Source: Psammoneis japonica
Taxonomy: Eukaryota
DNA length: 64,000 bases
NCBI GenBank assembly: GCA_008632985.1
Contig: QPGO01000152.1
Coordinates: 124,001 to 188,000, forward strand
Direction: 5' to 3'
The position numbers and the translations under genes were made by a program. The notes below the pieces were generated by a model that was given only the letters and a program-made list of their open reading frames with translations, did not search any database and had not been told where the DNA came from. Positions 1 through 39,949 of the stretch are shown here, in pieces (position 1 is the first letter of the stretch; the number at the start of each line of letters is the position of its first letter).

Positions 1-218
1 GGTGTGGAATTTGACAGAGTGAACGGCAATGCCGGCTTGAATTTTTTGGGCACCAAAACTGCAAAAAAAGCATTTTTGCAACAGGGGCGGCATTTTTCCA
101 TTGCTGAATTCTTCACATTCTTGCCACTCTCTCTCTGCTGTGTAAATGTGTGGAGAGCAAATTCCAATTTGGTGTGAGTCAGGCCCAAACGACCGTTCAA
201 CGTCTCTGGCGGGACACC

Positions 219-1690
219 CATTGACCACTTGTCTTTCTTTTTGTGGGTGTGGGTGTGCATGTGCCATTGCACGCAGCATTGCCTGCATGTGCGCAGGGCC
301 CTGCTGCCGGGGCTGGCAACAGTGGCAGGGTGGCGGGGCCAACGCACCGGTGACATGGATGACCGTTGTGTTTTGTGGCTCACGCCACCCCTGTGGCAGG
401 GGAGCTGTGCGTGTGTTCGTGGTTGCGCGCACGGCTTTGCCATCCATTGAGTTTTGATGTTGGCACCCACATGCATGTGTGCGTTCCACAAGCAAAAATC
501 CCCATTCCAGCATTTGTGCCCAAATGCACAAACAAATGAGAGGACATTTGTGTAAAAACACAATGAATGAGCCATGAATCTGCCGCGCAACCATGACATC
601 ACCACATTCTCCCCTGCTGCACCACAGGGCGGGGTGGGCTCATGCCATTTTTGGGGCTGTGGTGACGTGCACTGACACTCTTTTTTGTCCAATTTACCAC
701 CAAAATGGTGCATTGCACAAACTTTCTCATTGTTGTTCAACATGTTTTTTTCGAATGTGACCGTTTCGCGTGCAACTCACGACAAATGACATCCATTGAG
801 AGCCCCATGAATTTCCACCATGATGCACCGGCAATCCCAGTTTTACCGCAGTTTTGAGCTCTTCTGAAAAACCGCACTGCGCACCCATCGCAGGGATTTT
901 GTCGCTTTTTTAGGAAGTCCCCCGCGAACCCCAATGTCCCCAATGATCATTCTCACAATGCGAATGACACACCTGCACCAAACAAACCATGCCGTTTTGT
1001 GAATGCCAAGGGACACACTCTCAATCGCCAACATCCCGACCAACCCACCAACTGACTGACTGACTGACTGACTGACACGAAACCAGCCTGGCTGCGGGGA
1101 GCATTGACCACTTGTCTTTCTTTGTGGGTGTGGGTGTGTGTGCGGTTGCGTGCAGCATTGCCTGCACATGCGCAGGGCCCCACCACCAGGCTGGCATTGT
1201 GGCGGCAGGGTGGTGTGGCCACCGCACCGGTGACGCGGACGACCATTGTGTTTTGTGGCTCATGCCATTTTTGGGGCTGCAGCGAGGTGCAGGGACACTC
1301 TTTTTTGTCCAATTTACTGCCAAAATGACGCATCGCACAAACCTTCTTGTTGTTTGACATGTTTTTTGCAACATGACCGTTTTGCGTGCAACTCATGAAA
1401 AATTACATCTGTTAAGAGCTGGATGCATTTTTCACCACGATGCGCTGGCAATCCCAACTTTACTGCAGTTTCAAGCTCTTCCAAAAAACTGCACTACACA
1501 CCCGTTGCAGGGAATTTGTCGCTTTTCCAGGAAGTCCCCACGAACCCCAATGTCCCCAATGACAATTCTCAGAATGCAAATGACACACGTGTGCTAAACA
1601 AACCATGCCGTTTTGAATGCCGAGGGACACACTCTCAATCGCCGACATCCCAACCAACCAACCGACTGACTGACTGACTGACTGACATGA
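219..1690. repeat. Tandem duplication of a ~590-bp degenerate unit (copies ~219-1080 and ~1102-1690), each ending in an (ACTG)n microsatellite
   Basis: CATTGACCACTTGTCTTTCTTT starts at 219 and 1102; 637-1080 aligns with ~1257-1690; (ACTG)n at ~1051-1076 and ~1663-1686; copy 1 carries an extra insertion at 386-636. Confidence 0.85.
386..636. mobile_element. MITE-like non-autonomous DNA transposon with 9-bp target-site duplication
   Basis: Termini CACCCC...GGGGTG with imperfect TIRs; flanks GGCTCACGC (377-385) and GGCTCATGC (637-645); the second tandem copy has the empty site TTTTGTGGCTCATGCCATTTTT; a related end lies inverted at ~1768-1885. Confidence 0.75.
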
Positions 1691-1954
1691 AAAAGTCTGC
1701 AATCACCAACCACCAAGTGGTCAGTGAAAGTCTGCAATCACCAACCACCAAATGGTCAATGAAAAATCCCACCCCTGTGTCAGTGGAGAGTGTGTTTGGT
1801 GATGTCATGGTGATGCATGCTCACGTCATGGCATTTTTGTGTTTGTGTTCATGTGCATGAGACAACATTTGTGCACAAATGCTCACAGTTGCAGGAAAAA
1901 TCCTGAACCATGTGTGCTCTCCCCCAATCTTGAGCTGCCTCGAAGGGACCCCAC

Positions 1955-3306
1955 CAATGGAGACCTGGACATTTAAAAAACGGGAGACAGTGCGCACGCA
2001 CACAGAAATCACAAAATTCTGATTAAAAAAAACAACCATCACCATGACCGTCCATCTCATCCCAGTGGTCTGCATTGATGTTGTTGCTGCACAACACATC
2101 AGAACCCCATGTGTCCGCCATGGGCACAAAAGGCTGCTGATCACTGGTGTGTCACCTTCTCAAGAAGGATGGAACACATCGTTTGATTGCTTGTGCACCG
2201 TTTTGCGGCACAAAGTGATGGTGCATGACAGAGAGATGTGTTTGCTTGTTGACGCCAATTGGCTTGTCTCAGAAATGTGTCAATCTCATCAGTGGATGCA
2301 TGCTGTTGGGAGATGGTGTTCAGTCAGTGCAGCTGATGGATTTGTAGACGGCACAACACTTGGCATGACTGCAGGCATGCATGACAGTGACGGTGCCGGT
2401 CAGTGCAACAAAGCTCCCATCACGTTTTGCACAAGTTGTCCTTGTCATCAATCAAAACGGCACAGGTGCACACGTGAAGAATTTTCAAAATCTGTGGTTG
2501 GCATTGTGGTGCCTCCGCCCGCATGGAGAACAAGGACAAAAAGGGGCTTGTTGACTTGAAACTGCACCACATGGAAGTTGTGTTGTTGATCCAGCCAAAT
2601 GCACTGGCGGCGGTTGGAGCTGCTGGGCCCCAGCAGTGGTGGCAGTGGGAGCCTGTGTGCTGCCGGCACTGGTGGTGGTGGGAGCCTGTGCCAGTGCAGT
2701 GATGCCACTGGCGCTGGAGGTGGTTGGAGCCTTCTGCCACTGGTGCTGGTGGCAACAGGTGCCTGTGCACTGCTGCTGCAGCACTGGTGGCGGTGGGAGC
2801 CTGTGCAGCTGCTGGCACGGGCAGCGGTTGGAGCCCGTGTGCTGACAGCAAAATCAAGGTGGTTGGATCCCATTTGACAGGTGCCTGTGCACTGCTGCTG
2901 CAGCACTGGTGGCAGTGGGAGCCTGTGCAGCTGAAAATCATCTGTGCCAGACCCACCTGAGTTCTTGTTGTCTAGGAAACTGCGCCATTGAGCAAGCGCA
3001 AGCTGGCAACAAGGTCAACTCGACCGCCGACGTGAACGAGCATGTGACACATGGCTTGCCTTTTGGTTCCAGGCTAATTTCATGCACAATCCTTCAATGC
3101 AAACATGTAATGTCAACAACTGCTTCTTTGTGCTGACAATGAAGGAGTTGTTTCACACTGTCTTGTTGTCTCTTACAACCTTTTCTACTGCCTTTCTTGC
3201 AACCGCTTGATGTTGGTGTCGGATCTTTTGATGTTTTGGCATCTTTTTTGGTTTTTTGTGCAGTGCCACACTGTCCCCTGTTTTTTAAATGTCCAGGTCT
3301 CCATTG
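1955..3306. mobile_element. Degenerate TIR element (~40-bp inverted termini) with internal GGTGGCAGTGGGAGCCTGTGC-type tandem repeats
   Basis: CAATGGAGACCTGGACATTTAAAAAAC at 1955 is the reverse complement of the sequence ending at 3306; repeat array at ~2600-2935; no clean TSD. Confidence 0.55.
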
Positions 3307-3329
3307 AGCACTTTTGGTGCTCTCAAGCG

Positions 3330-5915
3330 CCGCAAAAAAAGCACGCGGCACAACAGCCTCACCATGATGCTTTCAAAACATTCATCCCCTCCCACTTCCG
3401 ACGGAAAAGCGACCAATGGCACTGATGATGCTAACACAACTGCAACCGGCAATGTTGCTGAAGTGGCCGTTGCACCCTCATTGCTTCTGAAATCATGCCT
3501 CATTTGCTGACACTCTGTTTTTTTCAGCTCCACAGCCTGCCGCAGCTTCTGGCATGAATGGCAACGCCGCTGATGCCTTTCCCGTAACTGCCATGCCCAA
3601 AACTTTTCCCAACCCAACTGGTGCAAGAGGTGACAATGTCGCTTTGTCTCTCCTTTGCCAAACACTGATGGAATTATTTTGCACCAACTGGCGCCATTTT
3701 CTGTTGCTGCGCAGCACTTTCAACAGCTTCATCTTGCTCTTTTTCAAGGGATGTGTTTTGGTTAAAGTGCCGTTTGTGCTGACAAACAGCTTCAAGGGAA
3801 TGTTTCAATGTGGTCTTGACTTGAACACTCTCAACATGCCACATGCATCCAGTGTTTCATGGCACTTCTTGGTCATGTTTGGCTTGTGTGCATTCTTTTG
3901 CTTGGTTGTTGGAGATCTGTCCCAAGAAATGCAAGAGTCCGTCAAGATTCAGCAGGGACTCAGAACGTTGACAAATGCCCCGGGTGGCCGCAACAGTTCG
4001 ACACTGAATCAGTCTTGAAGTCAGAAGCTGACAACTTGGAGCTCTTGCGGGGGCACAAATCCAACTTGGACACTGTGGAAAAGTGTCTTCTGGACAAGCA
4101 TCACCCAAAGAAGAAGCTTGCCACTGGTGTGGGTCAGCATGATTTCTTTGGGCAGATGTCCTCCAAGCAAGGTGGAAAGAAAAAGTCCTGATTGAAAATA
4201 ATGTGGTGTTGAGTGGCAGGTGTGGTCATGTGTGTTGCACTCATTTCCAAGGAACCATTCAAACATGAACCAAAAATCTATTCTGTGGTGGTCCATCTGG
4301 GTTTGTTCAAACCAGCACTCTGTCTCTCTCTCCAGGTTGTGGACATTTACAATGGCTGTGATGGAATCAAAATTGTCTCCCTCCATCTCCATCTCACTGC
4401 ACCTTGCCAATTGTGAACAGCAAAAGGCAACAAACACCAGCACTGCAGCCAACAGATGCAAGTGACTGGCCATCGGACATGTTCCTTTGTGACAGAACAT
4501 GCCACCAATTTTGCTCAGTTCCAGTGGCATCATGGGAGACGCCCAGTTGCGGGTCGGGGATTGGGCAGCAGGAACTGAATCAGGAGACAAGAAGTGCAAG
4601 TCTTCCGGATCACAAGTCTGCTGCAATTGTGGTGCAATGGGCAGAATGCTGATGTGGGCCACAACATTGGGTGTGGCAAAGTTGCCAAGGGAAGGCCGAT
4701 GCATCAATGGCACTTGCAACAGAAGCAGTGGCGTGCACTGTGGAGCATGAGTGAAAATGGTGTGAGACAGTGCAACAGCACCATTGGTGTTTTTGGCACA
4801 TGACAGCAATGCAAGAGTTGTCACCTGATGGACCGGGCAAAGTGGGAACCGCAACGGGGGTGCAATCAGCCAGAACATGGCTGACAGCATTGGCATTTGT
4901 GGTGGAAGCTGTGGGAGGCGTGCTGCGCAGCAACAGAAAAATGCTGTCAGTTGGCACCAAATGATTCAGCCAGTGTTTGGCCAAGGAGAGACAAAGCGAC
5001 ATCATTGCCTCTTGTGCCAGTTGGATTCAGAAATGTTTTGGGCAGTGTTGACTGATTGCTGGAATTGATTGCAATCAGCCTGTGATTGATTGCAATCGCG
5101 GTTGCAAACTCGATTGCAATGACCTGATTGTTGGGAAAGAGCCAAGGTCACAATCACAATTGACTGTTGCAATCATTTGCAATCAAAATTTGAGCTCTTT
5201 TTGTGGCTAAAATCAGCAAAATGGCTCGATTTCCCCTGCACGGGGGGCGCGCCTGGCCGGTGGGGCCATTGCAATCACGATTGCAATCGTCACACAGTCA
5301 GACCGCGCAATCGCTGCGCAATTGCAATTGACCAATTGCTGCTCCGCAGCGATGCAATCGCCTGGTTGCAATCTGATTGCTGCAGAAAACTTTGCAATTA
5401 GTCAACACTGGTTTCGGGCATGGCAGCTGACGCGTTCCAGCCCTGGGTGGGAGCTCGAAGCACTGACGTGTGACACAAATAATTTTTGTCATCTGTTGCA
5501 TGGTTTGCAAGCACATTTCTACGTGCAACATTTTAAAAAAATTGTCCAGACTCGCTGTTTTGCAAAGCCCCAAACGGTTCATGTGACAAATTTATAGAAA
5601 CAACAATGTGCCAGCTGCATTCTTCAATGTCTGAAGAATGCAACTGGCCAAGTAAAAAATGATTCACTTCAATCATGGGCGAGTTTGTGCGTTCGCAAAA
5701 TTGCCTCATTTTCTGTTGGCGATCATTGACAACTCAGCAAACAAGGTGTAATTTTGGAAGCAACAGGGGTGCGACGGCCACGTCAACAACATCACCTGTT
5801 GCAGTGGGGTCATTGTCATCAGTGCCGTCAGTCGCCTTTCTGTCGGAAGCGAGAGTGGACGAACATTTTGAAAGCATGATGGCAAGGTTGTTGTGCCACG
5901 TGCGGTTTTCACGGT
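3330..5915. repeat. Two inverted copies of an unclassified degenerate repeat
   Basis: ~3340-3510 matches the reverse complement of ~5735-5905; ~3595-3720 matches the reverse complement of ~4920-5045. Confidence 0.65.
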
Positions 5916-6152
5916 GGTGAGATGGCTGTGGGATTTTGATCAAATCAAGCTTGGTGAAGCGATCTGCCCTGCGGGTGCTGTGGCACAGTGCAAACCTGCA
6001 GCAGCATGGTGCCAACATGCACACAATGAACAAAATTGTGCAAAATTGTGGACATTTTCAAAAAGAAATGCTCCTTGTAAAATGTTCAAGAAATTGCATT
6101 TTAACAAACATCAAAAAATGAAAAACCAGCGCAAGCCGGACGCAACACTCTG

Positions 6153-6327
6153 TGCAAGATCTGGCTTGAGATGACTTGACAAAAGTTGTGAGAAACTGAG
6201 GAGAGACCCAATCATCGCTGATGTGGGAACAAACCTGATGGTTCTCAGCATGTCTGACACGTTGGTTAACACACATGTGTCAGAGAGGGCACACTTGGTC
6301 ATAGAGCACATGTGCCCATCTCATTCA
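6153..6327 (-). repeat. Gypsy 3' LTR
   Basis: Direct repeat of 11596-11770; TG...CA ends; adjacent PPT. Confidence 0.93.
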
Positions 6328-6636
6328 CTCTTCCCCTCCATGGTGCAAGGAACACGCGCACCATTGGAACCACTTGACTAAAATTCAAACCACACGCACA
6401 CAGAAAAGGGAACCCAGACGTTGGGAAGAAACCCTCAACTCTGATGCGGCACCACACAATGAACATTAATTTGTTCAACAACGTGCAGTGCTTGCAGCGC
6501 CAAAACAGTCCCATTGGCATGGACTTTTGTGCAATTCAAAATGGACCACAAGCTCATTTTTCCAACTTTGAAGGATCCACCGACTTGATTTGTGCATCTT
6601 GACTGGCTGGACAAGATTCTCATTGATCAATGCCTG

Positions 6637-7420
6637 TCAGTTGGCTTGAATTGTTGCAAGGTCAGTGACAACAGGCAGGTCCAAAATCACATCACATTGA
6701 AACACTAGAGCTCCACCGGAAACACCCACAGATCTTGAGTGGGAGCATCGTAAAGCACAAGAGGCTGAAGCAAGGGCATTGTCCACAATCTGCTTGGCCT
6801 GTTGAACATTCAAAGGTGGGTTAGCAACAACCACAGTGCGCAAGACATTGGCCACACCATCTGGTGCATTCATTCACAAATGGAGTTGGCTGTGGGATTT
6901 TGAGACGTTGTCGGCGCATCAGCAACACCTGCTTGATTTAGCAGCATTTGAAATTCCCAACCAATGAATTCTCCACCATTGTCATGGACACATTGATTTG
7001 GTCTGGGATGACAAGCTAACCAAAGGTTGTGAAACTTGTCAGTCACATGCTGACAAGTTTTGTTGTCAATGCACACGAGTTCAGTCAATCCAGTGACAGC
7101 ATCAATGCAAGTGAGAGCACTGAATTCAATCTCTTGGTCTTGAATTGGTGTTTTCCACGGTCCAATGAGATCAACTGCTGCTTCTGTCCACAGAGCCAAT
7201 GGTGCTTGACGTTGAGGCAACTCTCCATGTCCAGGACCCAATTGTTCAAATCGTTGACACGCATCACAAACAAATTCATCACAACATCAACACAATGCAG
7301 GATGATGCATGTGAGCACAAATGCTTTCATACAATCACACGACTCCACAATGGCCCAATGCAGGATGATGCCATGCAAGGACATCCGGCAACAACGCAGT
7401 GGGAGTGCAAATTTTCCAGG
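6637..7420 (-). pseudogene. Gypsy integrase remnant
   Basis: LAWHHPALGHCG zinc-binding remnant; VDLIGPW, LTCIDAVTGL, HDNGGEFIG and NPTANSICE core motifs; stops and frameshifts. Confidence 0.85.
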
Positions 7421-7849
7421 CTCCAGGCGGATCATTCACATGCAAACGACAACAAATGAGAGGACAATGGTTCACAATCTTGACCACAAACTGCTGCGGA
7501 TTCTGTTGTCTCTGTTGGTTCAGTTGGAGGTCTTCAAACTGGAATTGTTGTGTCCTTGATGTCTTGGTGGGATTTGGCATTTCGTCCAACATTGGACAAT
7601 TCAAAAAGCATTCAAACAATTCAGGCTCATCAAGCAAAGAGGAAACGGCAGCATGAGACTCATCAGAAGGATCAACAGGAGCATGGCAACACTTGAACCT
7701 GCAAGCGCCCAACTCCAAATCTTCTTCTTCCTTGGCCTTGCTCAATTCACTAGAATCCAACTTGTCAAAACGAACAATTTTTCCTTTGCGTTTGCCACTT
7801 GGCCCAAGGCTCTTCCCCTCCAAAGGTGGATCCACGCGGGGCAAACAAG

Positions 7850-9015
7850 AAAAACAATCGGCAAGCACGTTGTCCTTGCCTTTGACATGTTCAAATGCTG
7901 GCGCAAAATCTTCAAGGAACAGCTGCCAACAAAGGACGCACTGTGCATTCAAAGGTGTGAAAGGTGAGATTTTTATGGTCAGTGTGAACAGTGATGTCAG
8001 CACCGAGCAACATTGTGTGAAATTCTTTGAAGCACATGACGATGGCTGGGAGTTCTTTTTCCATTGTTGAGCAGTTACGTTGGGCCGCCGAAAGCTTCTT
8101 AGACCAATGCGCCACAGCTTTGCCATTTTGAACAATGGCTGCACCCATCTGGCAGTCTGATGCGTTGGTGCAGACATGGAATGGTGGGTTGTGGTTGGGG
8201 CAGGCCATCAATGCTTCTGCTGCAATTGCTGTCTTCATCTCTTTGAATGTTTTCTGACTTGCTTCCATCCAATGGAACTGACTCTTGCCTGTCAACTCAG
8301 TCAGAGGTGCAAGTGAGTGAGAACGGCAAGGCCACATGTTGCAACAGCAAGTTGCTGCACCAAGAAACAATCAAAGCTGAGCAGTGTTTCGTGGAGGTTG
8401 CATTCGCAGGATGGCTTTGACCTTTTTCTTCCACAGTTTAACGCCAGTCAGAGCAAGCCAATGCCCCAAGAAATCGGTTTCTTGAACACACCACTCGCAT
8501 TTCAACGGATTAACTTTCAATCCATTCTCCTTGAGACGATGCAGCACCTTGTCAAGACGAGAGAGATGGCAATCAAAGTCAGTGTCAAATGTGCCAATGT
8601 CATCAATGTGGGTTTCAACATCCAAACCATGTGGAATTTTCTCAATGACAGATTGAGCAATGTCTGGAGCTGGCTTCAATCCCACAGCCATGCGGCAGTG
8701 CTGGAATTTTCTGTGGGGAGTTGCAATCGCAGCTGGCTCCTTGCTTTTGTTGTCCAATTCCAAGTTGTGGTAAAACACAGTGAGATCAAGTTTCTTGAAG
8801 AATTTGCAGCCCGCTCTCCGCTGCAGCACATCTTGGATGGCTGGTGGAGGACACACTTTCTGTTTGAGGACCTTGTTGAGCTCATGGAAGTCGGACACCC
8901 ATCGCACTTGGCCATCCTTCTTTGGAGCAACAAAGGTGCCGGCTGCCCATTCTGCAGGTTTACATGGTTGCAGTGCACCAAGATCCACTGGATGCTTCAA
9001 TTCCTTTTTGAACAC
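7850..9015 (-). pseudogene. Gypsy reverse transcriptase-RNase H remnant
   Basis: VRWVSDFHELNK, FKKLDL, HIDDI (from YxDD), DFLGHWL; RNase H VCTNASDCQMGA, VAHWSKKL, EKEL, HTDHKNL, KGKDNVLAD. Confidence 0.92.
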
Positions 9016-9027
9016 TTCTTCATTAAC

Positions 9028-9885
9028 TCAAGCAACAGGAAACGGTTTTGAGTGACACAGAATGGCATTTTCATCCACTTCAAGGTGCACCTTTTCATGA
9101 GGATGGTGGCCCAACATTCTGTCAAATAAGGTTGAATGTTTTTCCAATGCCGCCAGCAGCTTCTTCTTTTGCTCTTCCATCAGATGGTCTAAATTCCGAA
9201 CCACTTCCACAGGATCCGTTGCTTTGCATTTGGCGTCTGGCATGCAGGTGTCACATCCATCGTCACATCTGTAGTTTGACTTGTCCTCACAGTCTTCATC
9301 AAACTCATCCATTTGGTCTAGAGCCATGTGCCAATTGCAGGACTTGGACCAATGACGGGGTTCTTTCATTGGGATCACACTGTCCAGCCATTGTAGCATC
9401 CTTGTGTCGTAACTCAAATTGAGGCCAGTCTTGTCCAAGAAATCTTGACCCAAAATGACATCACACGCACACGGAGCATTGAACACGTGAGCCATGCAGC
9501 CATCAATCCTTCGAGTCTTGTCAAACTCTGGCAACACAACATTGCTCAAGGCCACCCAACGACCCGACTGGAAAGGACCTGCAATGGTTTGAAAGGCTTG
9601 GACTCCGCATTCGTCAACAGACGGCACGGCTCCACGAGGTAGAACTTGGGACAAAATCATTGTGTGAGATCCACCAGAATCTAACAAAACACGCATCACA
9701 TGATTTGACTCATGCCGTTGGATCGATTTTGCAACAAGCAATGCAGATGGGACCAATGCGGTGCGCGAGACTTGCAAGTTCATTTTGGGGAGAGGAATGT
9801 TGTGTTCAAATGCATCTCGATCAAACACATCCCCCTCTTCATTCATGTAATTTTCTGCAGCATTTTCAAATTCAACAGGTGACAA
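9028..9885 (-). pseudogene. Gypsy aspartic protease region
   Basis: VLLDSGGSHTMI active-site motif and DVILGQDFL. Confidence 0.85.
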
Positions 9886-10132
9886 TTCATCAGGATTTTC
9901 AAAACGATCAAAAACAAAACATTCATCATTTCATTCAGGCAAAACACAATCATTCTCATCAACAAATGCTTCTCTTGTGGGCAATTGGGAGCATTCAGCT
10001 CCAGAGCATTCAGCTCCTTTCTTCTCAGAACTGCCAAGGAAACTGCCCATCTGGCTGAAACCTCACCACACCGTAATGTGGAAGGCCTCATCTGATCATG
10101 TCAAAATGGTGCACATCACCACGAGGAGCTTC

Positions 10133-11282
10133 TCAAGCCTGGTTGCCATTCACATTGTCTGCTTGAGCAGCACAGCCGTTGGCCTGACCTTGGCCTCCAC
10201 GGTTGTTGTTTTCATTGTGACAATGTTGACCACCACCTTGGTTGCCATTGTTGTTTTGATGCCCATTGTTGTTGTTGTCATTGTGACAGGTGCCACGACC
10301 TCCTTGGTTCTGGTTGCCACGACCACCAAAGCGTCCACTGCCTCCACGGCCTTGACCACGGCCTCCTTGGAAGCAACCTCCGCCTCGACCTCCACCGCCA
10401 CGGCCTCCTCCTTGACCGCCATGGTTCTGAGGCCCATGACAGTTAGGGTTGTTTGGATTGTCATGACACTGGCCCCATGTGTGCCATCCATGGTGCCACA
10501 GGACCGGACACAGATCACTTGCCTTTGGTTGGCTTTTGCTGTCCTTCTTGTTGCGGTTGCCCTTTTTGTTGCTGGAGTTCCCCACAATGCCGTTGTTGGA
10601 CTTGCGTCATTTGTCATCTTGACCGTTGGAAAAACACCTTCTTGTCACTCATGCAGGCTTGAACATCCACCATTGAATCTGCAACAAGGTTCTTGCCCAC
10701 ACGAATGTAAGACTGCTGCCAGGTCAAAGGGAAGGTGTAAAAAATGACATTTTTCTGCTCCTGCTCTGTAAGTTCAGGAACAGTTCCAGGCAAATGGTTG
10801 GCATGACAAAACAATGTTTCCATGTGATCAATGTGAGTTTCAGATTCTGCTGAGCAAGGCTTCTTGCAAGCAGGCAAATGCATCTTCATCGCATCGCAAG
10901 CTGTCAGTTTCATGCAGCACAGACAGTGGGCCAAGACAGCCTGATTAAATTGGGCTGCCGTTTGCTGATTCTGTTGGATGTTCGCGGCAACATTCTGCCA
11001 TTTTGCCTCTGCAGCACCTTGGAGACAATCCTCCAAAGCATCAAACAACTCTGTTCCGGCATCACAGTCCAGCCGTCTTGCTGCCTTCTGGAACCTGTCC
11101 TCCATGTGCAACAATGATTCAATTCCATGCTCTCCTGTAAAAACAGGACACATTTTTGAAAGTTTAGCACCATCATCAAAAGTTTGAGTGAGTTTCACTT
11201 CTTGTAATTCAGAATCCACGAATTTGGTCTTATGCTCAATGCACGCTTTCTCCAAGGCTTCTTGATGCATGGCAATGAACAA
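10133..11282 (-). pseudogene. Gypsy gag remnant
   Basis: Lies between the 5' LTR and the protease; CPVL..HGWHTWGQC knuckle-like motif followed by an RGG/Asn-rich tract. Confidence 0.7.
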
Positions 11283-11595
11283 TTTCAGCGATCAAACAAT
11301 CAACAATCCACAAGATGAACGAAACAAGGCATTCCCAATTGATCCACACAATGAGAACAATCAATGACTAAACAACAACAAATTCAACAGTGGCAACACA
11401 AACTTCGAGTTCAAACAAACGCTGCTCCAAATTGCCAATTTCAAGAGCACAATTGCACTGCAACTCCAATCGACTTTGAATGAAATTTTCTGCACAAGCA
11501 CACAGACAAATTTTCTCTCTTCTCAACAACACTCTTCACATTGTCATAAAACTGATGATGCAATGAACAAGCCACAACAATGACTGCAATTACAG

Positions 11596-11770
11596 TGCAA
11601 GATCTAGCTTGAGATGACTTGACAAAAGTTGTGGGAAACTGAGGAGAGACCCAATCATCGCTGATGCGGGAACCAACCCAACGGTTCTCAGCATGTCTAA
11701 CATGTCAGTTAACACACACACATCAGAGAGGGCACACTTGGTCATAGAGCACATGTGCCTGTCTCATTCA
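11596..11770 (-). repeat. Gypsy 5' LTR
   Basis: Direct repeat of 6153-6327. Confidence 0.93.
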
Positions 11771-12054
11771 CTCTGAAACAAGCCATCGGAGCTCAAGTTG
11801 ATGTTGGCCAGTTGCACAGAATGCATGCTGGACATGCACCAAGGAAAACCCAGACATGTGGCCAACTTTGGCCAAAGCTGGACACAACAAGGTTGCTGCA
11901 GATCTGTGCAGAGAGCCAGGGGTGCTGTCTGTGGGATGCAGGAGATTGCTTGTGCCTGCATGTGCATTTGCTTGTGCGCGAATGTTCCCTTCTCAATGCA
12001 TGTGATGACATCATCACACATCACACACAACCACATCCCACAGTGCCACTGACA

Positions 12055-13966
12055 CCACTTCCAGTGTGTTCCTGTGGCCTCTGCGGAGACTTTGAATCAT
12101 TGCACGCCAAATTTTGTGGGGCAGAGCTTTTTCAACGCATGGATCCAAATCTGCACCATGCACCGTGTTACAGCACAGCACTGCATCTTTTCAAAAATCA
12201 ACATCTGTCGGTGTTGTCAATGCCACCCATGCGTTGCAAGGCATGTCGCAATGGTGCATGTCCACTTTTTCTTGCTCCTCTTGTCATTGTCAATGTTGGC
12301 TTGATCTGCCATTCTCTTCTTTGATGCATGCTTTTTTGTCGCTTTTTCAGATTTTGCCATGAAATCCGTTCTGAACGCTGCTTTTGCACTCCCCTTTGCT
12401 CTTTGGTCTGTAGTTCACTTTCTGCATTTTCGGCACTCGGCTTTGGCTCGGGCATGGGCAACCTTTTTCACGAGATTCTTCCATGTGTGCTTCAGTGATG
12501 CAATGGTCAATCGTTTGCTGCTGTTCTCTTGGGCTGTTTTCAAGAAGGAGCGTTGCAAAACCTTGTCTCCCATTGCCTTCCCCATGCAGAAGTGAAGAAA
12601 ATCATTGCCACGACATTCAAAAGCTTTTGCGTCACAGTGTCCCCGCACCTGATGCAACAGTGTCTTTGCAACTGTAAAACAAGGTTTGGAAACCAAGGCA
12701 AGCCAACCCATGTTTTGACTTTGTTCTCCTTGTGAACAATGGTCACTCATGTGATCATTGTCCAATGTTGCTTTGTTGTGAGTGGCATTTTGATTTTGGA
12801 CTGGAGACGGCCGCCATCATTGACTCCTCAAACAACAAAAGAAGATCCCCCATCATGTGTTGACATGACACATTGAAGGTGAGCCCATCTGCATGGTTCA
12901 TTGTCCAAACAGCCTTGAACCAGTTTTCATTCACAGTGTGTACACTGACCCTTGCGATCTTCTGAAAATCATCATCGTTCTTCAACAGTCCATCATGTCT
13001 GGCTCATTAAAATGGGCTCAGTGGGGATTTCGGCAGCATTGCTTGGCATTCCTCTCAAGACTCAGTGGCACTGCCGTGTCTTTCCCTTGGCAGCAATTGC
13101 CGGTGAGAACATTTCTGTTTGTTCTGTGTTCATGTGTTCAATTTTGTTGCCTCTCTTGAAGCCTGTGTCGAAAACAATGTTCTCACTGCTTGCATCCCCC
13201 CTTCTCTTTTTGGCCTCCCACTGCAACTGCCGGCAGCTGCTTGCGGGGACGACATCTGCTGAATGACCTGGCGTGACAGTTCACAGGTCGTGGTTTGATG
13301 TGTGGCTTGGCATGATCAAGGCGAGAAAAAACAACGAATGCGTCCGATTGTGAAAGATGGAACAAGGAGAGCTGGCTGTCATGCACCCACAGGGTTCTGT
13401 CACAGTGTGCTCTAAATGTCCCATCAAAAGATTCACCCCACAGCATCAGACAGCATTGGGAGTCGCTCATGCTGACAATGGCAATGTTGGGATCTCAAAC
13501 GGATCTGGATCGGGCATCAGCATGATGTGATGCATGATGGTGCGACGGAAAAACCGCACCGCAACAAACCACCTGCACACAACTCTGGTCTCCTTGCGTG
13601 ATTTTCACAAGGCGGGTCATGTTGCGCTTGTTGGATGCCAAGTGTGCAGAATGTGTCACATTGCACTTGTCACCCAAGTTGCAAATGCAAGCCTTCTTTG
13701 CCTTCCTTTTTGTGTCGGTTGCAGCCTTGGTGTCAGGTGCCATTGCACTGAAAATTCACAAATGAAACAAAGTGGCTCTGATGGCAATTGCATCCATTTT
13801 GTTGTTTTGTTGTTCCGTTGACAGCAACATTGATGCTGATTGTCAAGTGCCATTGTGGTGCAGTGTTCAGAAAAAAATCAAAAATTTTGAAAAGCTCCGC
13901 CCCGCAAAATTCAGCATGCAAAAACTCGAAGTCCCCGCAGCCAATGCACAATCATGCTGGAAATGG
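12055..13966. mobile_element. Degenerate DNA transposon with ~110-bp imperfect TIRs
   Basis: CCACTTCCAG...CTGCGGAGACTTTGAATCATTGCACGCCAAATTTTGTGGGGCAGAGCTTTT from 12055 is inverted at ~13860-13966; decayed internal minus-strand ORF fragments; no clean TSD. Confidence 0.6.
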
Positions 13967-14791
13967 GAGGCCCGCTGGCAACTGATCTGACGCTGATTGA
14001 ACAAGGACAAATTGTTGAAGCCTGCGGTGGAGCCTGTGCAGCCCCACCTGTCCTGTTGTTTAATTGTGTGTCCATGATGCAAGCCATCGCAAATGCAGAC
14101 TGCGACCCGCATCTGGATTCAGTGCTGGGGTGGGGGTTCAAGAATGGTCACATGAAGAAAGACCAAGGGACAACACAAACACAAACACAATCTCACTTTC
14201 TTTCAATCAAATGCACACCACAGCACTGTCTCAGTTTTGTGGGCACGTCACATCCTCCAGTGCATGCCCAGTGTGGTGTGTGGGGTGACGCAAAAATGGC
14301 AACAGCAGCATGGTGTTTGAAGCAGACACCAAAGAAGGCATCTCCAAATGCTTCAAAAGCACATGTGGGCAACCCAGGGCTTGAGTGTCCATTGGTCTCA
14401 CACAGGAGTCAAAAGGAAATTTCTTGCAATCACTGTGTGCTGGCCCTGCTGATGGAAATTGAAGGCAAATGGCAAGAATTCAAACAACAACTCCTCACTG
14501 CTGTCTAAACAGCAGATGAGTCTCCGCTCAGAGACCGTTGCAGGAGCCAAAAGACGTGCAAGTCGGTGTGATCGGGCTGCTGTTGTCATTCTTGTGAGCC
14601 TTGTGGCTCGAAAGCAAACTACATCGCGCGCGAACGCGCGGAACTAAAGCACACAAAATTGTGCGCGGTAAACTAAACAGCGCGCGACATTTCGCACGCA
14701 CCCAAATCCTGTTCAAATCCTGTCACTCCCCAGTTTGCTTGAGGAGTCACAGAAACAGATTCGACTTCGGATTGACTAAAGAACTTTGGAG

Positions 14792-16465
14792 TCAAAGCAC
14801 CAAAACATGAGGAGACAAGAAAGGATCAAGATCCAAGAGCAATGTTGCATTCTCCAAGTGGGTCATCTTGAGATGAGCTGCGTCTCCCCAATTGCAGATG
14901 CCGTTGTGCTTTTCAAAGCTCAAGGCACACTTGGGATCTTGTGGGATTCCACATCTGCACTTGCAATGGAAGGAGCAAAGCTTGGTCTGGTTGACAATGT
15001 TGAACGGCGGGGCAACATTGCAGGCGGCATGGCGTTTGCACGACTCGGGGAACAGAGCAAGCATGAGTTCAAAGGCACAAGCGGTGGTCTTGTGTTCCAC
15101 CAATCTGATTGCAAGCTCAGCTGCATCTCCTGAGAGACTGATCCAATTGGAGAAACGAGTCTCAAGGTGCAAGCCTTCGGGGATCGGATTGGAGCAAGAC
15201 ATCTTGCAGTGCAAGGCTGCAGATGTCTGATTGGGGCAACCAGTCCCGTGCTGCAAGACTTCTGGGATCCAAAAGGACTTGCCAGTCTTGTGACACGAGT
15301 CTTCGGGGATCCAATCAGGAGGCCAAGTCTCGTGGCACAAGACTTGAGAGATCCAATCCGGAGGCCGAGTCTTGAGGTATGAGATGTGGAGGATCCAATT
15401 GGGAGGCCCGGTCTTGAGGCACGAGACGTGGAGAGTCCAGTTGGGAGGCCTGGTCTCAGGGCACGAGACTTGGGGCATCCGATCAGGAGGCCCAGTCTCG
15501 ATGTACGACACTTGGGGCATCCAATCAGGAGGCCCAGTCTCGAGGCACGAGACTTGAGGCATCCAATCAGGAGGCCCAGTCTCGAGGTGCGAGACTTGGG
15601 ACATCCAATCAGGAGACCTGGTCTCGAGGTACGAGACTTGGGGTCCCCAATCAGGAGACCTGGTCTCGAGGTACGAGACTTGGGGCATCCAATCAGGAGG
15701 CCCAGTCTCGAGGTACGAGACTTGGGGGATCCAACCAGGAGGCCCAGTCTCGAGGTACGAGACTTGAGGCATCCAATCAGGAGGCCCAGTCTCGAGGTAC
15801 GAGACTTGAGGCATCCAATCAGGAGACCTGGTCTCGAGGTGCGAGACTTGGGGCATCCAATCAGGGGGCCTGGTCTCGAGGTACGAGACTTGGGGCATCC
15901 AATCAGGAGGCCCAGTCTCGAGGTGCGAGACTTGAGGCATCCAATCAGGAGGCCTGGTCTCGAGGTACGAGCCTGTGCAAGGGCTGCAATCCTGCACTGG
16001 GCCGAGGTTGCTTGCAGGCGGGTTGGTCAAGACATGTGGGGCGCGACTGACACCACTTCTAGGGGACACCTGAGTGGCGGCACAGTGCAAGGCTGGTGTC
16101 AAAATGGCACTGGGTTCATCTGGTTTGGATGGCAAGGGACTCGGCACAGGTGCGGAGGGTGCTGCGCCAGTGGCTAGAGAGGTCAAGCAGTCCGGACCAA
16201 GGCGGCAGTTGCGAAATTCCTCGGGTGTGAGCAACTGGGGTTCATTGGTCACATCATCACCGTTGCAAACTTTGACAAAGCAGAAGCTGATCAAAGCTGC
16301 TAGGAGGTTTCTGTGGGTCCATGGCAAAGGCACTACATTGGCGCCGTCTCTGTAAGTGAGGGTGTCAATTTGGGTGGGTAAGAACGTGAACAATTCCTCG
16401 CACAATTCAATCCCGTTGATGGACAGGGCAGAACGAAGAGGGCTGTCATTGTCTTGATTGAGCAC
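14792..16465 (-). CDS. Copia-derived ORF: gag-like N-terminus, ~20 14-aa repeats, pre-RT fragment (expression unknown)
   Basis: 557-codon open frame; DSPLRSALSINGI...IDTLTY resembles diatom Copia gag starts; C-terminal CGIPQDPKCALSFEKHNG..NWGDA resembles the segment preceding Copia RT. Confidence 0.5.
   Translation of the reverse strand: MLNQDNDSPLRSALSINGIELCEELFTFLPTQIDTLTYRDGANVVPLPWTHRNLLAALISFCFVKVCNGDDVTNEPQLLTPEEFRNCRLGPDCLTSLATGAAPSAPVPSPLPSKPDEPSAILTPALHCAATQVSPRSGVSRAPHVLTNPPASNLGPVQDCSPCTGSYLETRPPDWMPQVSHLETGPPDWMPQVSYLETRPPDWMPQVSHLETRSPDWMPQVSYLETGPPDWMPQVSYLETGPPGWIPQVSYLETGPPDWMPQVSYLETRSPDWGPQVSYLETRSPDWMSQVSHLETGPPDWMPQVSCLETGPPDWMPQVSYIETGPPDRMPQVSCPETRPPNWTLHVSCLKTGPPNWILHISYLKTRPPDWISQVLCHETWPPDWIPEDSCHKTGKSFWIPEVLQHGTGCPNQTSAALHCKMSCSNPIPEGLHLETRFSNWISLSGDAAELAIRLVEHKTTACAFELMLALFPESCKRHAACNVAPPFNIVNQTKLCSFHCKCRCGIPQDPKCALSFEKHNGICNWGDAAHLKMTHLENATLLLDLDPFLSPHVLVL
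15130..15971. repeat. 42-bp tandem array (~20 units, ~15 well conserved) encoding SYLETGPPDWMPQV on the minus strand
   Basis: Unit GGCATCCAATCAGGAGGCCCAGTCTCGAGGTACGAGACTTGG repeats with period 42 and decays toward 15130. Confidence 0.95.
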
Positions 16466-18577
16466 AGTGCCTAGAATGCATTTGAAGCTGTCGGTTTGTT
16501 GCTGTCATGTGAGAACCATGACGGAGGACGGTGCAGTAGAAACAAAAGACAGGATCCAATCTAGAGCGCGATCTTGACTGGGAGTTTTGACTTGGAACTT
16601 GGCTTGAAAAAGACTTGACTTGAGCCAGACTTGACTTGAAATCTTGGACTGTCCTAAAATCAGAAGTCGCCGGGCTGTGCTGTCCCATTTGTTGTCAAGT
16701 GCTGAGCTTCCTATCCGGTCCGTAGAGTTGTGCCGGCACGTCCGAACCCGCAGCCAGCGGCGCTTTGGGTTGCTTACGAGTGGAGCAGCGGGTTGTAAAC
16801 CCCTGCAGGCAAGCTGACTAGAGGTGGACAAGACCCCCGAACCGTTCTTATTTTACATCGGTTGGATTTCCCGATCAGGCTGGCCAGTTGACGTAGGCGC
16901 AGGTGCTGTGGACGAACGAACAAACGCGGGAAAACACCCTCGCCCCAACGCAGGCTGCAATCACGGCTGCTTGCTCTCACAGTCGTCCTCGTGGACCTGG
17001 CAGAACTGCAGAGCACCAGTGGTCCGGGGCAGATCAGGTACAATGGACTCGGCGTGCTTGCAGAGTGGCAGCAAAGCTGCAGTCCAAAGAGTGGGTTCAA
17101 GTCCTTGGCCGTGAAGATGTGTGTGCACACATGTCTTCAGCGACGGAGATCCTTGAACATGTGGGGTTCTTGACCGTTAACCGTTGAATGGGCAGGGCCT
17201 GTGTCACGGGATGAGGATCAAGGATGGGCTTGGATGTGACCGTTCAATGCATGTCTTCAGCGATCAAAGGTGGCATGATCAATCCAGATGTCCAGCGGTG
17301 AGGAGACTTGACGGTGACGTTAACTTCCTGCCGATGCCCTGGCATTGGATGCGCGCAGACTTGCCGATGTGCGTAGAACATGTGCGGAGGTCCACGCAGA
17401 ATTGAGACAGTGCTGTCGGCAAATCAACGACGACGATGGCGGTTGCTCAATGGGTTGACAATGAGCAAGACTGTTAATCTGACAGAAATTGAAGGCAAAT
17501 GGCAAGAATTCAAACAATGACTCCTTGCTGCTGTCTAAATGGCAGATGAGTCTCCGCTCAGAGACCGTTGCAGGAGCCGAAAGACATGCAAGTCGGTGCA
17601 ATCGGGCTGCTGTCATCATTCTTGTGAGCCTTGTGGCTCGAAAGCAAACTGCATCGCACGCGAACGCGCGGAACCAAAGCACACAAAACTGTGCGCGGTA
17701 AACCAAACAGCGCGCGACATTTCGCGCGCACCTGAATCCTGTTCAAATCCTGTCACCTGCGCTGCCTCTCTTCTTTGAGAGCAGCAGGGTTGTTGCAGAG
17801 CAAGCTGCCTGTGCCAGGAGACAAAAATGCATGAGTGCTGCTGGCACTGCTGACTGAGCTGTGGCTGCATTGTGCACACATGCCAGCATGCTCTGTGCTC
17901 TGCAAAAATGAGACAAGAGCACAAAAGAGCTTGTGACCAGAGCTGGCACTCTGCAAGAGCGGCTTTCAATGATGATGATGCACGGCAAGCTCAAAGAGCT
18001 CCTGCGGGGCACTTTTGTCAACTTTTTGGATTGGAAGACAAGAATGCAGTGCTTGACAAGTTGTTGGTGTGAGAACACAGAAAAATGAGATGCGACAAAA
18101 ACCACCAACAAGTGCCAGCAGGTTCTGAAGTCTGCGGAGGCACCAGGAGGTTTGCCAGCCATTCTTGCCACAGCACCAGTGCTTTTCTAAAACTGAATGT
18201 TTGCGCACATCACAAGAACAAAGCAAGAGACAAGACACTCTTTCACACGTGCATGTAGGAACGAGGGCGGCTGCGAAAGCACGCACAGCGAGGCGCTGAC
18301 AGTGACTGGCTAGCAGGGGGTCAGACGGTCGGTGATGCGATGACGTTTCGTGCCTGAAGACATGGCCTTCAGTCGTCACTCTCGCCAGTTATTTACAGTG
18401 ACAGACGCGGCAGACAGCAAGACGATCGTTTTCCCGCCATGTTATGTATGCGTGTACTCAACCGCATCAACGCGAAGTGATGGTGAGATGTGAAGATGGG
18501 TGAGTGCCGTGAAAACACTCGGCACTCGGCACATCCATCGCAGAGCGCAACTGTGCCAACACTGTAAACGAAACTAA

Positions 18578-24216: not shown

Positions 24217-24259
24217 CTTGCCATGCCCGCGCTCCTCATCTCATTTTCCATCTTTGTTT

Positions 24260-38000: not shown

Positions 38001-39949
38001 AATGGCATGCCAGGAGCTGTGGTGCACTGGGCACCCCACCCATGCCACAGCCATTGGGTGTTGAGTGGGGGGGGGGGGGTGAATGCCACTGCCACGTCTC
38101 CAAAATGTGAGAGGGAGTGCGGGGTGTTCATGTTGACTGCCTCCAGCAGTGCATCAGCAAAACCCATCAAGAGCATCTGCAGCAAGTGGCAACAAGAAAA
38201 CAAAGGAGGTGAGATGGAAACTGTGGCATGAGCTGGATGGGTGCATCTGGTGTGGAAGCTCAGCCTGGCAGTTGAGGAAAATGCAGGGAGAGATGACTCA
38301 GAAGGAGCCAGCAGACTTCAACAGCTGCCAACTTCTGTTTGTGCAAGCCTGCACTTTTGCAGATGCAACCACTGATGGCACTTGCAAACTTTGGTCATTG
38401 CTCTCAGAAACCCTCCTCTGGAAAATGGATTTGACCTCCAGATGATGGCACTGAGTGACTGCTCACTCTTCAGCAAATCTTGTCACCAGCCACTTTTGCA
38501 GACATTCAGCAGCAGTGTGTCATTGCCACCTTGTGTTGATGACCCACATGACATGTCACAATTTGAAAAGCTGCACCTTTGTCTGTCAACTTTTGGCCCT
38601 TCTTGTTCTGCTGTGGCCAGCTGAGACAAGAAGGGAGGAGCGAACTTGCAGCTCTGCCCAAGCCAGAAAATGCCTTGATGATTGTGTGTAAAATGCACAA
38701 GGAAGGGCAAACATGTTGTGACAATGGTGCGCACTCAAGAAGACATTCCAGGTGAGGAGCATGTCACCATGTTTGTTGCACGTGTGTTCTTGAGAAAAGT
38801 GTTTCCAACTCATCTCAAAACATGTGCCAACCCAGTTGGCAACTTTTTGGATGTTTCAGATGTGTTCAAGGTGGTTGACACAGTTGGCTTTTTAATTTAG
38901 ATGTTTGGTGTTTGGTGTGGTTAGAGTTTTTTTAGATGTCCAGCAAGGTGCCAGCTGGACATTCTTCATTGGCCATGCAGCTCAAACAATGGGTTGGCAA
39001 TTTTTTGGAGACATTTGAGTTGAGCTTGGCTTGTGAGACATTTGAGATGGGCCGGCAATTTTTTTGGATGCTTGAGACACCTTGGCAGTTTTTTTTCTTT
39101 TTGCGTGAGCTGGTTGGAGCTCATCAAAGCTGCTGATGTGCGTGTGTGCTCGCACAGGTGACAACAAAAATCACATGTGCCAGCAAATTCAATTGAAGTG
39201 TGTCTGCACACTGGCATGTGTCACATCACAACTCAATTGCGCAATCTTCCTCACCCACAAGAGGTGTCTTGAAGTGTCAAAAACCCAGATTCCAAGTGCA
39301 AACCACAACAAAAAGCATTGCAGATGTGTGCGCACTTGACAATGAAGAACTTCAACATCTTTAACAAAATTGGATGCTCCAGCCACCACACCACACTTTA
39401 AAAGGTCTGTCTGGTTTTCTGGACTGCTCGCTCCTTTTTGGATCTGTGACTCTAGTGGACAAAAGAGCTCCAGCAGTGTCTTGCTGATTTTTCAGTTAAA
39501 AAAAATGCTGTGCAGCGTCCAGCAAATGTGAGAAAAGTGCGTTGTTCACAAAGCCCTGAATGGCACACTGCCTTGCTGGTCAGGCAATGTCCAAAGAGAT
39601 GTTTGAAAGCAGAGTTCTCTGTCAGCTGCAGATTGTGAACAAACCACACAAACAGATCTCAGATGTTCTTAAATGTGCATGATGCAAGAGGTGTGGTCAA
39701 AAGGCCACAAGACACTGGAAAGTTCTGCTCAATCAAGATCCAGTGATCAAGCTCCAGCCATCTGGCAGTTGACACATCAACTTTCTTGTTCTGGATGGCA
39801 ACAAGTGGGGTTGTGCAATGGGCATTGTGTGTGTAATTTGTGCTTCCTTTGGCACTTCCCACAGACAGTGCTTGGAGAGAATTTGAGAGCCACACCATCA
39901 TTTTTTGACAGCACACTTGTCTCCACCACATTTGTGAAAGAACTCAGCA

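What the first reader, a model, noticed from the sequence alone, without database searches (positions are those of the whole stretch)
1..18300. Repeat-restricted TpA->TpG/CpA hypermutation, opposite in direction to RIP: candidate undescribed genome-defence system
Seen: in transposon-derived blocks TA is almost absent, CG is depleted and TG/CA dominates, while adjacent genes and intergenic DNA have plenty of both. Established: CpG->TpG/CpA follows from 5mC deamination, and fungal RIP creates TpA from CpA; neither destroys TpA. Inference: a second process changes the A of TpA to G on either strand, only in repeats. Adenine (or modified adenine) deamination to hypoxanthine or error-prone repair in silenced chromatin would do this. 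I know of no description of such a process but cannot search the literature.
Basis: partly seen in the sequence, partly recalled or inferred. Interest (0 to 1): 0.92.

Follow-up and report, generated by a model that had tools for sequence, protein, structure and literature searches.

The report
TpA-erasing hypermutation of diatom repeat blocks
In this diatom genome piece, dead transposon blocks have had almost every TA and most CG steps rewritten to TG or CA after insertion, a mutation pattern whose TA half matches no process described in the papers I could search.

Summary
Three sharply bounded blocks (1-15295, 35142-45167, 51035-52250) hold 133 TA where 1058 are expected at the neighbouring rate. 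CG falls to about a third, TG and CA rise by half, and G+C is unchanged. Flanking genes place the window in a diatom.

The change is a polarised mutation, not native composition. In a Ty3/gypsy relic, 1 of 14 conserved Tyr codons survives (10 are now TGY or CAY; the catalytic YxDD reads HIDD) and 1 of 12 conserved Arg. 80 related elements from metagenomes have normal TA.

It acted on DNA after insertion: 37 of 39 differences between the LTR pairs lie in pyrimidine-purine steps, many as TG opposite CA.

It is context-specific. RTAY is 99% erased (2 left of about 321 expected) and YTAR about 37% kept, so the target is A in 5'-TAY or its paired T.

The CpG half fits 5mC deamination. The TpA half has no known counterpart; ten literature searches found no description. 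The enzyme, dependence on repetition and a defence role remain inferences. Raw reads could not be checked, so a modified-base calling artefact is not excluded (about 10%).

The parts
1..15295 (.). Hypermutated block 1 (runs to the window start): TA o/e 0.09, CG 0.46, TG 1.74, CA 1.76
3731..4188 (+). Relic of a host-type EMC3 gene (C-terminal two thirds, one frame change near 3985). It has 1 TA in 458 bp. None of 6 Tyr of the best database homologue is kept (4 are now C or H). Of 10 Arg, 2 are kept and 5 are now C or H.
   Evidence: Pfam PF01956 E 4.7e-11; solved EMC3 chains E 4.8e-12, SWYFL read as SWHFL and FGLR read as FGLC
6152..6331 (.). LTR of the Ty3/gypsy relic (pairs with 11595-11774, 90.6% identical)
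6332..11594 (-). Internal part of the Ty3/gypsy relic. Gag-like, protease-RT-RNase H and integrase pieces lie in at least four different frames with in-frame TGA stops.
8371..9027 (-). Reverse-transcriptase ORF; the catalytic YxDD motif reads HIDD
   Evidence: Pfam RVT_1 E 3.3e-17; Ty3 RT chain 4ol8_A E 2.3e-23 with alignment
11595..11774 (.). Second LTR of the Ty3/gypsy relic
14449..17756 (.). Partly mutated element bounded by 278-bp direct repeats (14449-14726 and 17479-17756, 92% identical). No protein was recognised in it.
15295..15971 (.). 42-bp tandem array of 16 copies. At its single consensus TA (in GTAC), 5 copies have T>C and 3 have A>G, intermixed between neighbouring copies.
35142..45167 (.). 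Hypermutated block 2, the most extreme (TA o/e 0.05, CG 0.18). Its origin is unidentified. It ends about 70 bp before the open frame of the NTE-type gene.
51035..52250 (.). Hypermutated block 3, a 1.2-kb island between two genes, with a 98-bp tandem repeat at 51880-52141

Best explanation
The blocks are dead transposon and pseudogene DNA of a diatom. After insertion this DNA underwent a DNA-level, strand-symmetric, transition-only hypermutation at the two self-complementary pyrimidine-purine steps. CpG became TpG/CpA, most strongly in TCG/CGA and least in GCGC. That fits deamination of 5-methylcytosine in methylated transposons. TpA became TpG/CpA with its own specificity: RTAY is erased almost completely and YTAR is partly spared. 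So one strand-level event is A>G in 5'-TAY, or equally T>C in 5'-RTA. Shown here: the polarity, the timing after insertion, the action on both strands, the context rule, the sharp confinement to blocks, and a rate two or more orders of magnitude above other sites. Inferred: the TpA half is enzymatic. The selectivity is too high for spontaneous damage or a sloppy polymerase. My preferred chemistry is deamination of adenine to hypoxanthine on DNA by a deaminase with a 5'-T preference, working in silenced or repeated DNA like RIP but in the opposite direction. The outcome is permanent inactivation: Tyr codons are lost, Arg codons become stops, and G+C stays unchanged.
For: Size and confinement of the signal. 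Polarity, using 137 of the 150 listed RT homologues (those with at least 2.5% Tyr; 13 were left out) laid on the window by tblastn, which gave 242 conserved columns: Tyr kept 1 of 14 (6 to Cys TGY, 4 to His CAY, 2 Phe, 1 Met). Arg kept 1 of 12 (5 Cys, 3 TGA stops, 1 His, 1 Gln, 1 Lys). Leu to Pro three times as CCA. By contrast Trp 7/7, His 5/5, Cys 4/4, Glu 7/7, Lys 10/11 and Gly 22/24 were kept. YxDD reads HIDD. The EMC3 relic keeps 0 of 6 Tyr. After insertion and on DNA: the two LTR pairs differ at 39 columns, 37 of them in pyrimidine-purine steps (235 such columns against 223 others carrying 2 differences; binomial p 4e-9). These include 12 sites with TG opposite CA. Neighbouring tandem-array copies differ as TA, TG or CA at one site. 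Symmetry: TG 2968 against CA 2941. Context: RTAY 2 left against about 321 expected, half-sites 62 against about 534, YTAR 63 against about 168. Not native composition: 80 of 80 related metagenome loci have TA o/e 0.46-1.08. Not only this assembly: 5 of the 150 listed database homologues have under 1.5% Tyr, and they carry Cys or His at 3 to 9 of the conserved-Tyr columns they cover. Real decay: the pol relic needs at least three frame changes, while neighbouring genes have uninterrupted frames up to 1234 codons.
Against: So the bases themselves, copy number and dependence on repetition are untested. No enzyme candidate was seen or could be sought. Natural adenine deamination of DNA is, to my recall, undescribed. 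No strand-coordinated patches of TG or CA were found (runs test z -0.2, -1.6, -0.8), so there is no sign of a processive single-strand deaminase. None of the 80 metagenome loci shows the signature, so its spread in nature rests only on five unnamed database proteins. Only 17 of 67 mismatches between the EMC3 relic and its best homologue are explained by these changes alone, so that comparison is across a diverged pair. Most of the block DNA could not be shown to be transposon-derived.
Confidence: 0.6

Rival explanations
1. Passive decay driven by a modified base. In silenced DNA the T or the A of TpA carries a modification (for example an oxidised thymine or a methylated adenine) that mispairs at replication, as 5mC does by deamination. 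No dedicated mutator or defence function is then needed.
For: This model would give the same block confinement and symmetry as the CpG half. A tetranucleotide rule (RTAY) is what a sequence-specific modifying enzyme would give.
Against: Passages of 10.1101/2024.10.28.620566 report that the diatom Phaeodactylum exclusively harboured 5mC of the two marks studied, that eukaryotic 6mA is at ApT and not in transposons, and that its mutagenic potential seems limited. No TpA-specific modification in diatoms is known to me (recall). TpA loss is more complete than CpG loss in every block, which would require a very mutagenic mark.
Confidence: 0.14
2. Base-calling or polishing artefact. The blocks are heavily modified (5mC at CG and an unknown mark at RTAY), and a long-read caller reads the modified bases as the other purine or pyrimidine. 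Each strand then reports TG, and the consensus picks TG or CA.
For: Errors induced by modification in nanopore data are typically transitions with strand bias (recalled, not from a call). The read-level test could not be run.
Against: It would need about 99% of RTAY sites to be miscalled. Neighbouring copies of a 42-bp array, covered by the same reads, differ as TA, TG or CA. The relic also carries at least three frame changes while flanking genes are intact. Tyr-free relatives with the same Cys/His substitutions occur in entries from three sources, on contigs of 1.3-2.3 kb where the length was reported.
Confidence: 0.1
3. Error-prone patch repair. T:G mismatches from 5mC deamination, or from a RID-like DNMT4 enzyme, recruit mismatch repair with a polymerase-eta-like enzyme that miscopies WA motifs, as in the second phase of antibody hypermutation.
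For: CpG and TpA loss occur together in the same blocks. Polymerase eta favours A>G at TA (recalled). Passages of PMC9998398 state that diatoms encode DNMT4 enzymes related to fungal RID, of unknown function.
Against: AA is not depleted (block/background 1.10). Only 2 of 223 columns outside pyrimidine-purine steps differ between LTRs, while RTAY is 99% lost. That selectivity is far beyond such a polymerase. Changes at conserved Tyr are 10 transitions against 3 others, whereas this polymerase gives many transversions (recalled).
Confidence: 0.07
4. RNA-level A-to-I hyperediting of retrotransposon transcripts (ADAR-like) fixed by reverse transcription.
For: A>G with a 5' U preference resembles ADAR and ADAT enzymes (recalled).
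Against: The two LTRs of one element, identical at insertion, now differ at these sites, including TG opposite CA. Both strands are hit equally. A host-gene relic and a tandem array are hit too. ADARs are confined to animals (recalled).
Confidence: 0.02
5. Native composition or selection against CpG and UpA in the elements, or foreign DNA with its own dinucleotide bias.
For: Joint CpG and UpA avoidance is known in RNA viruses (recalled).
Against: Catalytic and conserved residues are destroyed and stops are created. 80 of 80 related loci have normal TA.
Confidence: 0.01

Closest known systems
Repeat-induced point mutation (RIP) of Neurospora and other ascomycetes (RID, DIM-2)
   Same: It acts on DNA in place, hits both strands, makes only transitions, depends on dinucleotide context, is confined to transposon or duplicate blocks with sharp edges, and destroys coding capacity. 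Diatoms carry DNMT4 enzymes related to RID (PMC9998398, passages).
   Different: RIP turns CpA into TpA and makes DNA AT-rich (recalled). Here TpA is destroyed, G+C is unchanged and half of the changes are A:T to G:C. The host is a diatom. Dependence on duplication and on a sexual stage is untested.
TCG-to-TTG hypermutation of transposons in Pucciniomycotina such as Microbotryum (seen only as titles in the listing; properties recalled), and 5mC-driven CpG decay in methylated diatom transposons
   Same: CpG loss to TpG/CpA in transposons is strongest with a 5' T (TCGA 0.17, TCGT 0.12 against GCGC 0.88 of the background frequency).
   Different: Those processes leave TpA alone. Metagenome relatives L044 and L046 show such CpG-only decay (CG o/e 0.11 and 0.27 with TA 0.76 and 0.81).
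Adenosine deaminases acting next to a 5' U (ADAR, tRNA deaminases TadA and ADAT2/3) and laboratory adenine base editors derived from TadA (all recalled)
   Same: The outcome is A to G with a 5' T/U neighbour. TadA's natural site is U-A-C, which fits 5'-TAY.
   Different: The natural enzymes act on RNA. DNA activity is known to me only from engineered TadA. No such gene was seen or could be sought here.
Antibody somatic hypermutation (AID plus polymerase eta at WA motifs; recalled)
   Same: It combines C deamination with A:T mutations at TA.
   Different: That process is far less site-selective, also hits AA and gives many transversions. None of this is seen here.

Membership tests
Fungal RIP | C-to-T at CpA producing excess TpA and AT-rich DNA | tested here: not met
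   TA o/e is 0.05-0.09 in the blocks and G+C is 0.48-0.52, the same as the flanks. Polarised changes destroy TA.
Fungal RIP | Mutation of DNA in place, after duplication or insertion, on both strands, by transitions only | tested here: met
   37 of 39 LTR differences lie in pyrimidine-purine steps, 12 of them as TG opposite CA. TG 2968 against CA 2941.
Fungal RIP | Restricted to sequences present in two or more copies above a length threshold | not testable with these tools
   No genome is held. Within the window, short duplicates of 200-330 bp outside the blocks are not mutated.
Fungal RIP | Requires a RID-type DNMT | not testable with these tools
   The literature reports RID-related DNMT4 in many diatoms, of unknown function (PMC9998398, passages). 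The window encodes none.
5mC deamination decay of CpG | Polarised CG to TG/CA in methylated DNA | tested here: met
   Conserved Arg kept 1 of 12: 5 Cys (TGY), 3 TGA stops, 1 His, 1 Gln, 1 Lys. Methylation itself was not measured.
ADAR-type RNA hyperediting fixed by retrotransposition | Changes arise before integration and on the transcribed strand only | tested here: not met
   The LTRs of one element differ at these sites. Conserved Tyr went to Cys (A>G on the coding strand) 6 times and to His (T>C) 4 times.
Polymerase-eta type WA mutagenesis | A:T mutations at both TA and AA with a large share of transversions | tested here: not met
   AA is 1.10 times background. 10 of the 13 changes at conserved Tyr are transitions. 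2 differences in 223 columns outside pyrimidine-purine steps.
Ty3/gypsy LTR retrotransposon (element 6152-11774) | LTR pair flanking gag-like, protease-RT-RNase H and integrase in that order | tested here: met
   LTRs are 90.6% identical. RVT_1 E 3.3e-17. Ty3 RT E 2.3e-23. Full-length homologues align colinearly over 11216-6441.

The most novel reading that the evidence does not exclude
Diatoms possess a natural DNA-level A:T-to-G:C editor with 5'-RTAY-3' specificity. It would be an adenine deaminase acting on DNA, or a thymine-to-cytosine aminase comparable to the reverse U-to-C editing domains of hornworts and ferns (recalled). Together with 5mC deamination it would serve as a RIP-like, GC-neutral genome defence that erases Tyr codons and all TAA/TAG-containing sequence from repeats.
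Probability: 0.35. Interest if true: 0.95.

Novelty: new variant of a known kind. Interest (0 to 1): 0.8.

Why it matters
Targeted hypermutation of repeats is so far known as C-to-T chemistry: RIP, TCG hypermutation and APOBEC editing. A process that removes TpA by A:T-to-G:C transitions, with a tetranucleotide rule and a rate hundreds of times above background, would be a new mutational chemistry in nature.

It would also be a second, convergent way of killing transposons for good, found in a major group of marine primary producers. If an enzyme is behind it, that enzyme would be a natural DNA adenine (or thymine) editor of direct interest for base editing.

There are practical consequences. 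Such blocks lose TAA and TAG stops, so they fill with long false ORFs. Their transposons escape homology-based annotation, since 24 ORFs of at least 150 aa and 134 further ORFs of 70 aa or more from the blocks gave only two credible Pfam matches. LTR-based dating is also badly inflated.

Tried and rejected
- Whole genome: none is held.
- Content of the rest of the blocks. Pfam on 24 ORFs of at least 150 aa and on 134 of the 183 ORFs of at least 70 aa listed (I left out 49 ORFs already scanned or largely overlapping others) gave only RVT_1, EMC3 and three matches below their curated cut-offs.
- Looser tblastn with the 137 homologues found nothing outside 6300-11600 (6 chance-level hits).
- The 383-aa ORF 35899-37050(-) had no homologue and no Atlas hit. 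By my own estimate this length is unlikely by chance.
- The Atlas on an unexplained gene ORF gave no usable lead.
- Strand-coordinated clusters of TG or CA: runs test z -0.21, -1.63, -0.76 in the blocks against +0.13, -0.94, -1.15 in the background. There is no evidence for them.
- Coding-strand asymmetry in the gypsy relic (TG 633, CA 488) was rejected as evidence, because intact relatives also have TG above CA on that strand.
- Names or organisms for the Tyr-free database proteins: none returned.
- Earlier findings of this scan: nothing relevant.
- One paper opened on a word match (10.1101/2022.06.24.497555) was irrelevant.
- Literature searches found no description of TpA-to-TpG/CpA hypermutation. 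Subscription journals are mostly outside that library.
Full report
**What is there.** Dinucleotide ratios in 1-kb windows and a two-state segmentation show three blocks.
- 1-15295: TA o/e 0.09, CG 0.46, TG 1.74, CA 1.76.
- 35142-45167: TA 0.05, CG 0.18.
- 51035-52250: TA 0.07, CG 0.31.

Between the blocks TA is 0.54-0.60 and CG 0.92-0.95. G+C is the same everywhere (0.48-0.52). Pooled, the blocks hold 133 TA where 1058 are expected at the background rate (p 7e-166). They hold 537 CG against 1464, 2968 TG against 1948 and 2941 CA against 1833. The loss of TA plus CG roughly equals the gain of TG plus CA. Edges are sharp at 100 bp. The stretch 15296-18300 is only partly affected.

**Host.** The flanking DNA carries intron-poor eukaryotic genes (eIF3d, an NTE-type patatin lipase, thioredoxin reductase, a kinase). 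The best named relatives of eIF3d are diatoms: Seminavis robusta 68%, Epithemia 65%, Mayamaea 64%, a partial MMETSP diatom transcript 75%, and Thalassiosira and Cyclotella 55-57%. Unnamed hits reach 72-74%. So the window is from a diatom.

**What the blocks contain.**
- 6152-11774 is a Ty3/gypsy relic. It has a 180-bp LTR pair at 90.6% identity, an RT ORF (RVT_1 E 3.3e-17; Ty3 RT E 2.3e-23) and colinear matches to full-length homologues. Those matches need at least three frame changes and pass several TGA stops.
- 14449-17756 is bounded by 278-bp direct repeats (92% identical) and holds a 42-bp tandem array.
- 3731-4188 is a relic of a host-type EMC3 gene.
- In the rest nothing was recognised.

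So 'transposon-derived' is shown for only part of the blocks.

**Polarity.** I searched the RT ORF against 1.84 billion representative proteins. I took 137 of the 150 listed hits, those with at least 2.5% Tyr (13 were left out), and laid them on the window. This gave 242 columns where at least 8 homologues are aligned and 60% agree.
- Tyr is kept 1 of 14 times: 6 Cys as TGY, 4 His as CAY, 2 Phe, 1 Met.
- Arg is kept 1 of 12 times: 5 Cys, 3 TGA stops, 1 His, 1 Gln, 1 Lys.
- Leu became Pro three times as CCA.
- By contrast Trp 7/7, His 5/5, Cys 4/4, Glu 7/7, Lys 10/11, Gly 22/24 and Asp 17/19 are kept.

The catalytic YxDD reads HIDD. Over 597 codons the relic has 3 Tyr, 27 Cys and 31 His. The EMC3 relic keeps 0 of 6 Tyr of its best homologue (4 are now C or H). 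Of 10 Arg, 2 are kept and 5 are now C or H. Only 17 of its 67 mismatches are explained by these changes alone, so that homologue is not a close ancestor. The ancestral sequence therefore had TA and CG, and both were changed by transitions in both strand senses.

**Not native composition.** 80 related RT loci fetched from metagenome contigs all have TA o/e 0.46-1.08. These are the best 80 of 518 confirmed matches, so the sample favours intact copies. Two of them (L044, L046) show CpG loss alone.

**After insertion, on DNA.** The two LTR pairs differ at 39 columns. 37 of these lie in pyrimidine-purine steps: 235 such columns against 223 others that carry 2 differences (p 4e-9). By class there are 12 sites with TG opposite CA, 5 with TA against TG or CA, 7 with CG against TG or CA, and 3 others. 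LTRs are identical at integration, so these changes arose in place. This excludes RNA editing before reverse transcription. In the 42-bp array the single consensus TA (in GTAC) is T>C in 5 copies and A>G in 3 of 16, intermixed between neighbours. With 0.9% divergence outside pyrimidine-purine steps and about 99% loss at the best sites, the rate at those sites is hundreds of times that of other sites.

**Context rule.**
- RTAY: 2 left where about 321 are expected (ATAT 0 against 94 in the background sample, GTAC 1/123, ATAC 1/105, GTAT 0/101).
- Half-sites RTAR and YTAY: 62 against about 534.
- YTAR: 63 against about 168 (TTAA 25/62, CTAA 16/51, CTAG 15/56).

A site survives only if both strands present TAR. 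The strand-level target is therefore A in 5'-TAY, or equally T in 5'-RTA.

CpG loss is strongest in TCGA and TCGT (0.17 and 0.12 of the background frequency) and weakest in GCGC (0.88). TG and CA are equal overall, and runs tests show no strand-coordinated patches.

**Outside this assembly.** Five of the 150 listed homologues have under 1.5% Tyr. At nine conserved-Tyr columns they carry Cys or His at 9 of 9 (P0006), 4 of 7, 4 of 6, 4 of 7 and 3 of 5 covered positions. Two further proteins are partly affected. I chose these rows for the alignment on purpose. The two looked up (P0006, P0036) come from NCBI and Logan on contigs of 1.3-2.3 kb. No organism names were returned.

**Mechanism.** The CpG half is what deamination of 5mC in methylated diatom transposons would give. 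Methylation was not measured here. For the TpA half I rank the options as follows.
- An enzymatic DNA-level activity, most simply adenine deamination next to a 5' T. The very high site selectivity supports it. No enzyme is known or was seen.
- A mutagenic base modification at RTAY. passages speak against 6mA in a diatom and against 6mA in transposons.
- A base-calling artefact. It is made unlikely by the near-complete conversion, the array pattern, the frame changes and the Tyr-free proteins in other sources.
- Polymerase-eta-type patch repair. AA is not affected, transversions are few and the selectivity is too high.

RNA editing and native composition are excluded. Passages of PMC9998398 state that many diatoms encode DNMT4 enzymes related to fungal RID, of unknown function. 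That is a lead for the CpG half or for targeting, not evidence.

**Novelty.** Ten full-text searches found no description of repeat-confined TpA-to-TpG/CpA mutation in diatoms or elsewhere. The library lacks most subscription journals. Properties of RIP, TCG hypermutation, ADAR, TadA and ADAT, polymerase eta and reverse U-to-C editing are given from recall. I file the finding as a new variant of repeat hypermutation. Its TpA chemistry, if enzymatic, would be new.

Noticed in passing
window 1-18300 and 35142-45167: TAA and TAG are almost absent, so the blocks are full of long open frames in all six frames. Many of the 69 ORFs of at least 150 aa in the window lie there. One is a 570-aa frame running through the 42-bp tandem array (14792-16504, minus strand). 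These would be called as false genes.
   Followed up: partly
window 35899-37050 (-): A 383-aa open frame in block 2, longer than chance allows by my estimate from the TGA frequency (about 0.03 such ORFs expected). It has no homologue and no Atlas hit. It is possibly the relic of an unrecognised element.
   Followed up: partly
window 62000-63685 (+): A single open frame joins a SLAC1/TehA-type anion channel domain (E 1.4e-20) to a C-terminal hemerythrin domain (E 1.7e-7), an unusual fusion.
   Followed up: no
L044 and L046 (whole loci): Related gypsy elements from metagenomes show strong CpG loss (CG o/e 0.11 and 0.27) but normal TA (0.76 and 0.81). Their hosts seem to have the CpG process without the TpA process.
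   Followed up: no
P0006, P0036, P0075, P0134, P0146 (database proteins): These reverse transcriptases have 0-1% tyrosine, with Cys or His at conserved Tyr positions. P0006 still has 7.4% Arg, which hints that TpA loss can run ahead of CpG loss.
   Followed up: partly
window 20080-24240 (-): Three overlapping open frames (a kinase domain in 20080-21111, plus 685-aa and 417-aa frames without Pfam matches) look like one large gene split by short introns or frame changes.
   Followed up: no
window 26860-27327 and 30267-30464: Short tandem duplications (141-bp and 107-bp units) lie in the unmutated gene-rich DNA and keep normal TA. Either duplicates of this size escape the process or these are recent.
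   Followed up: no
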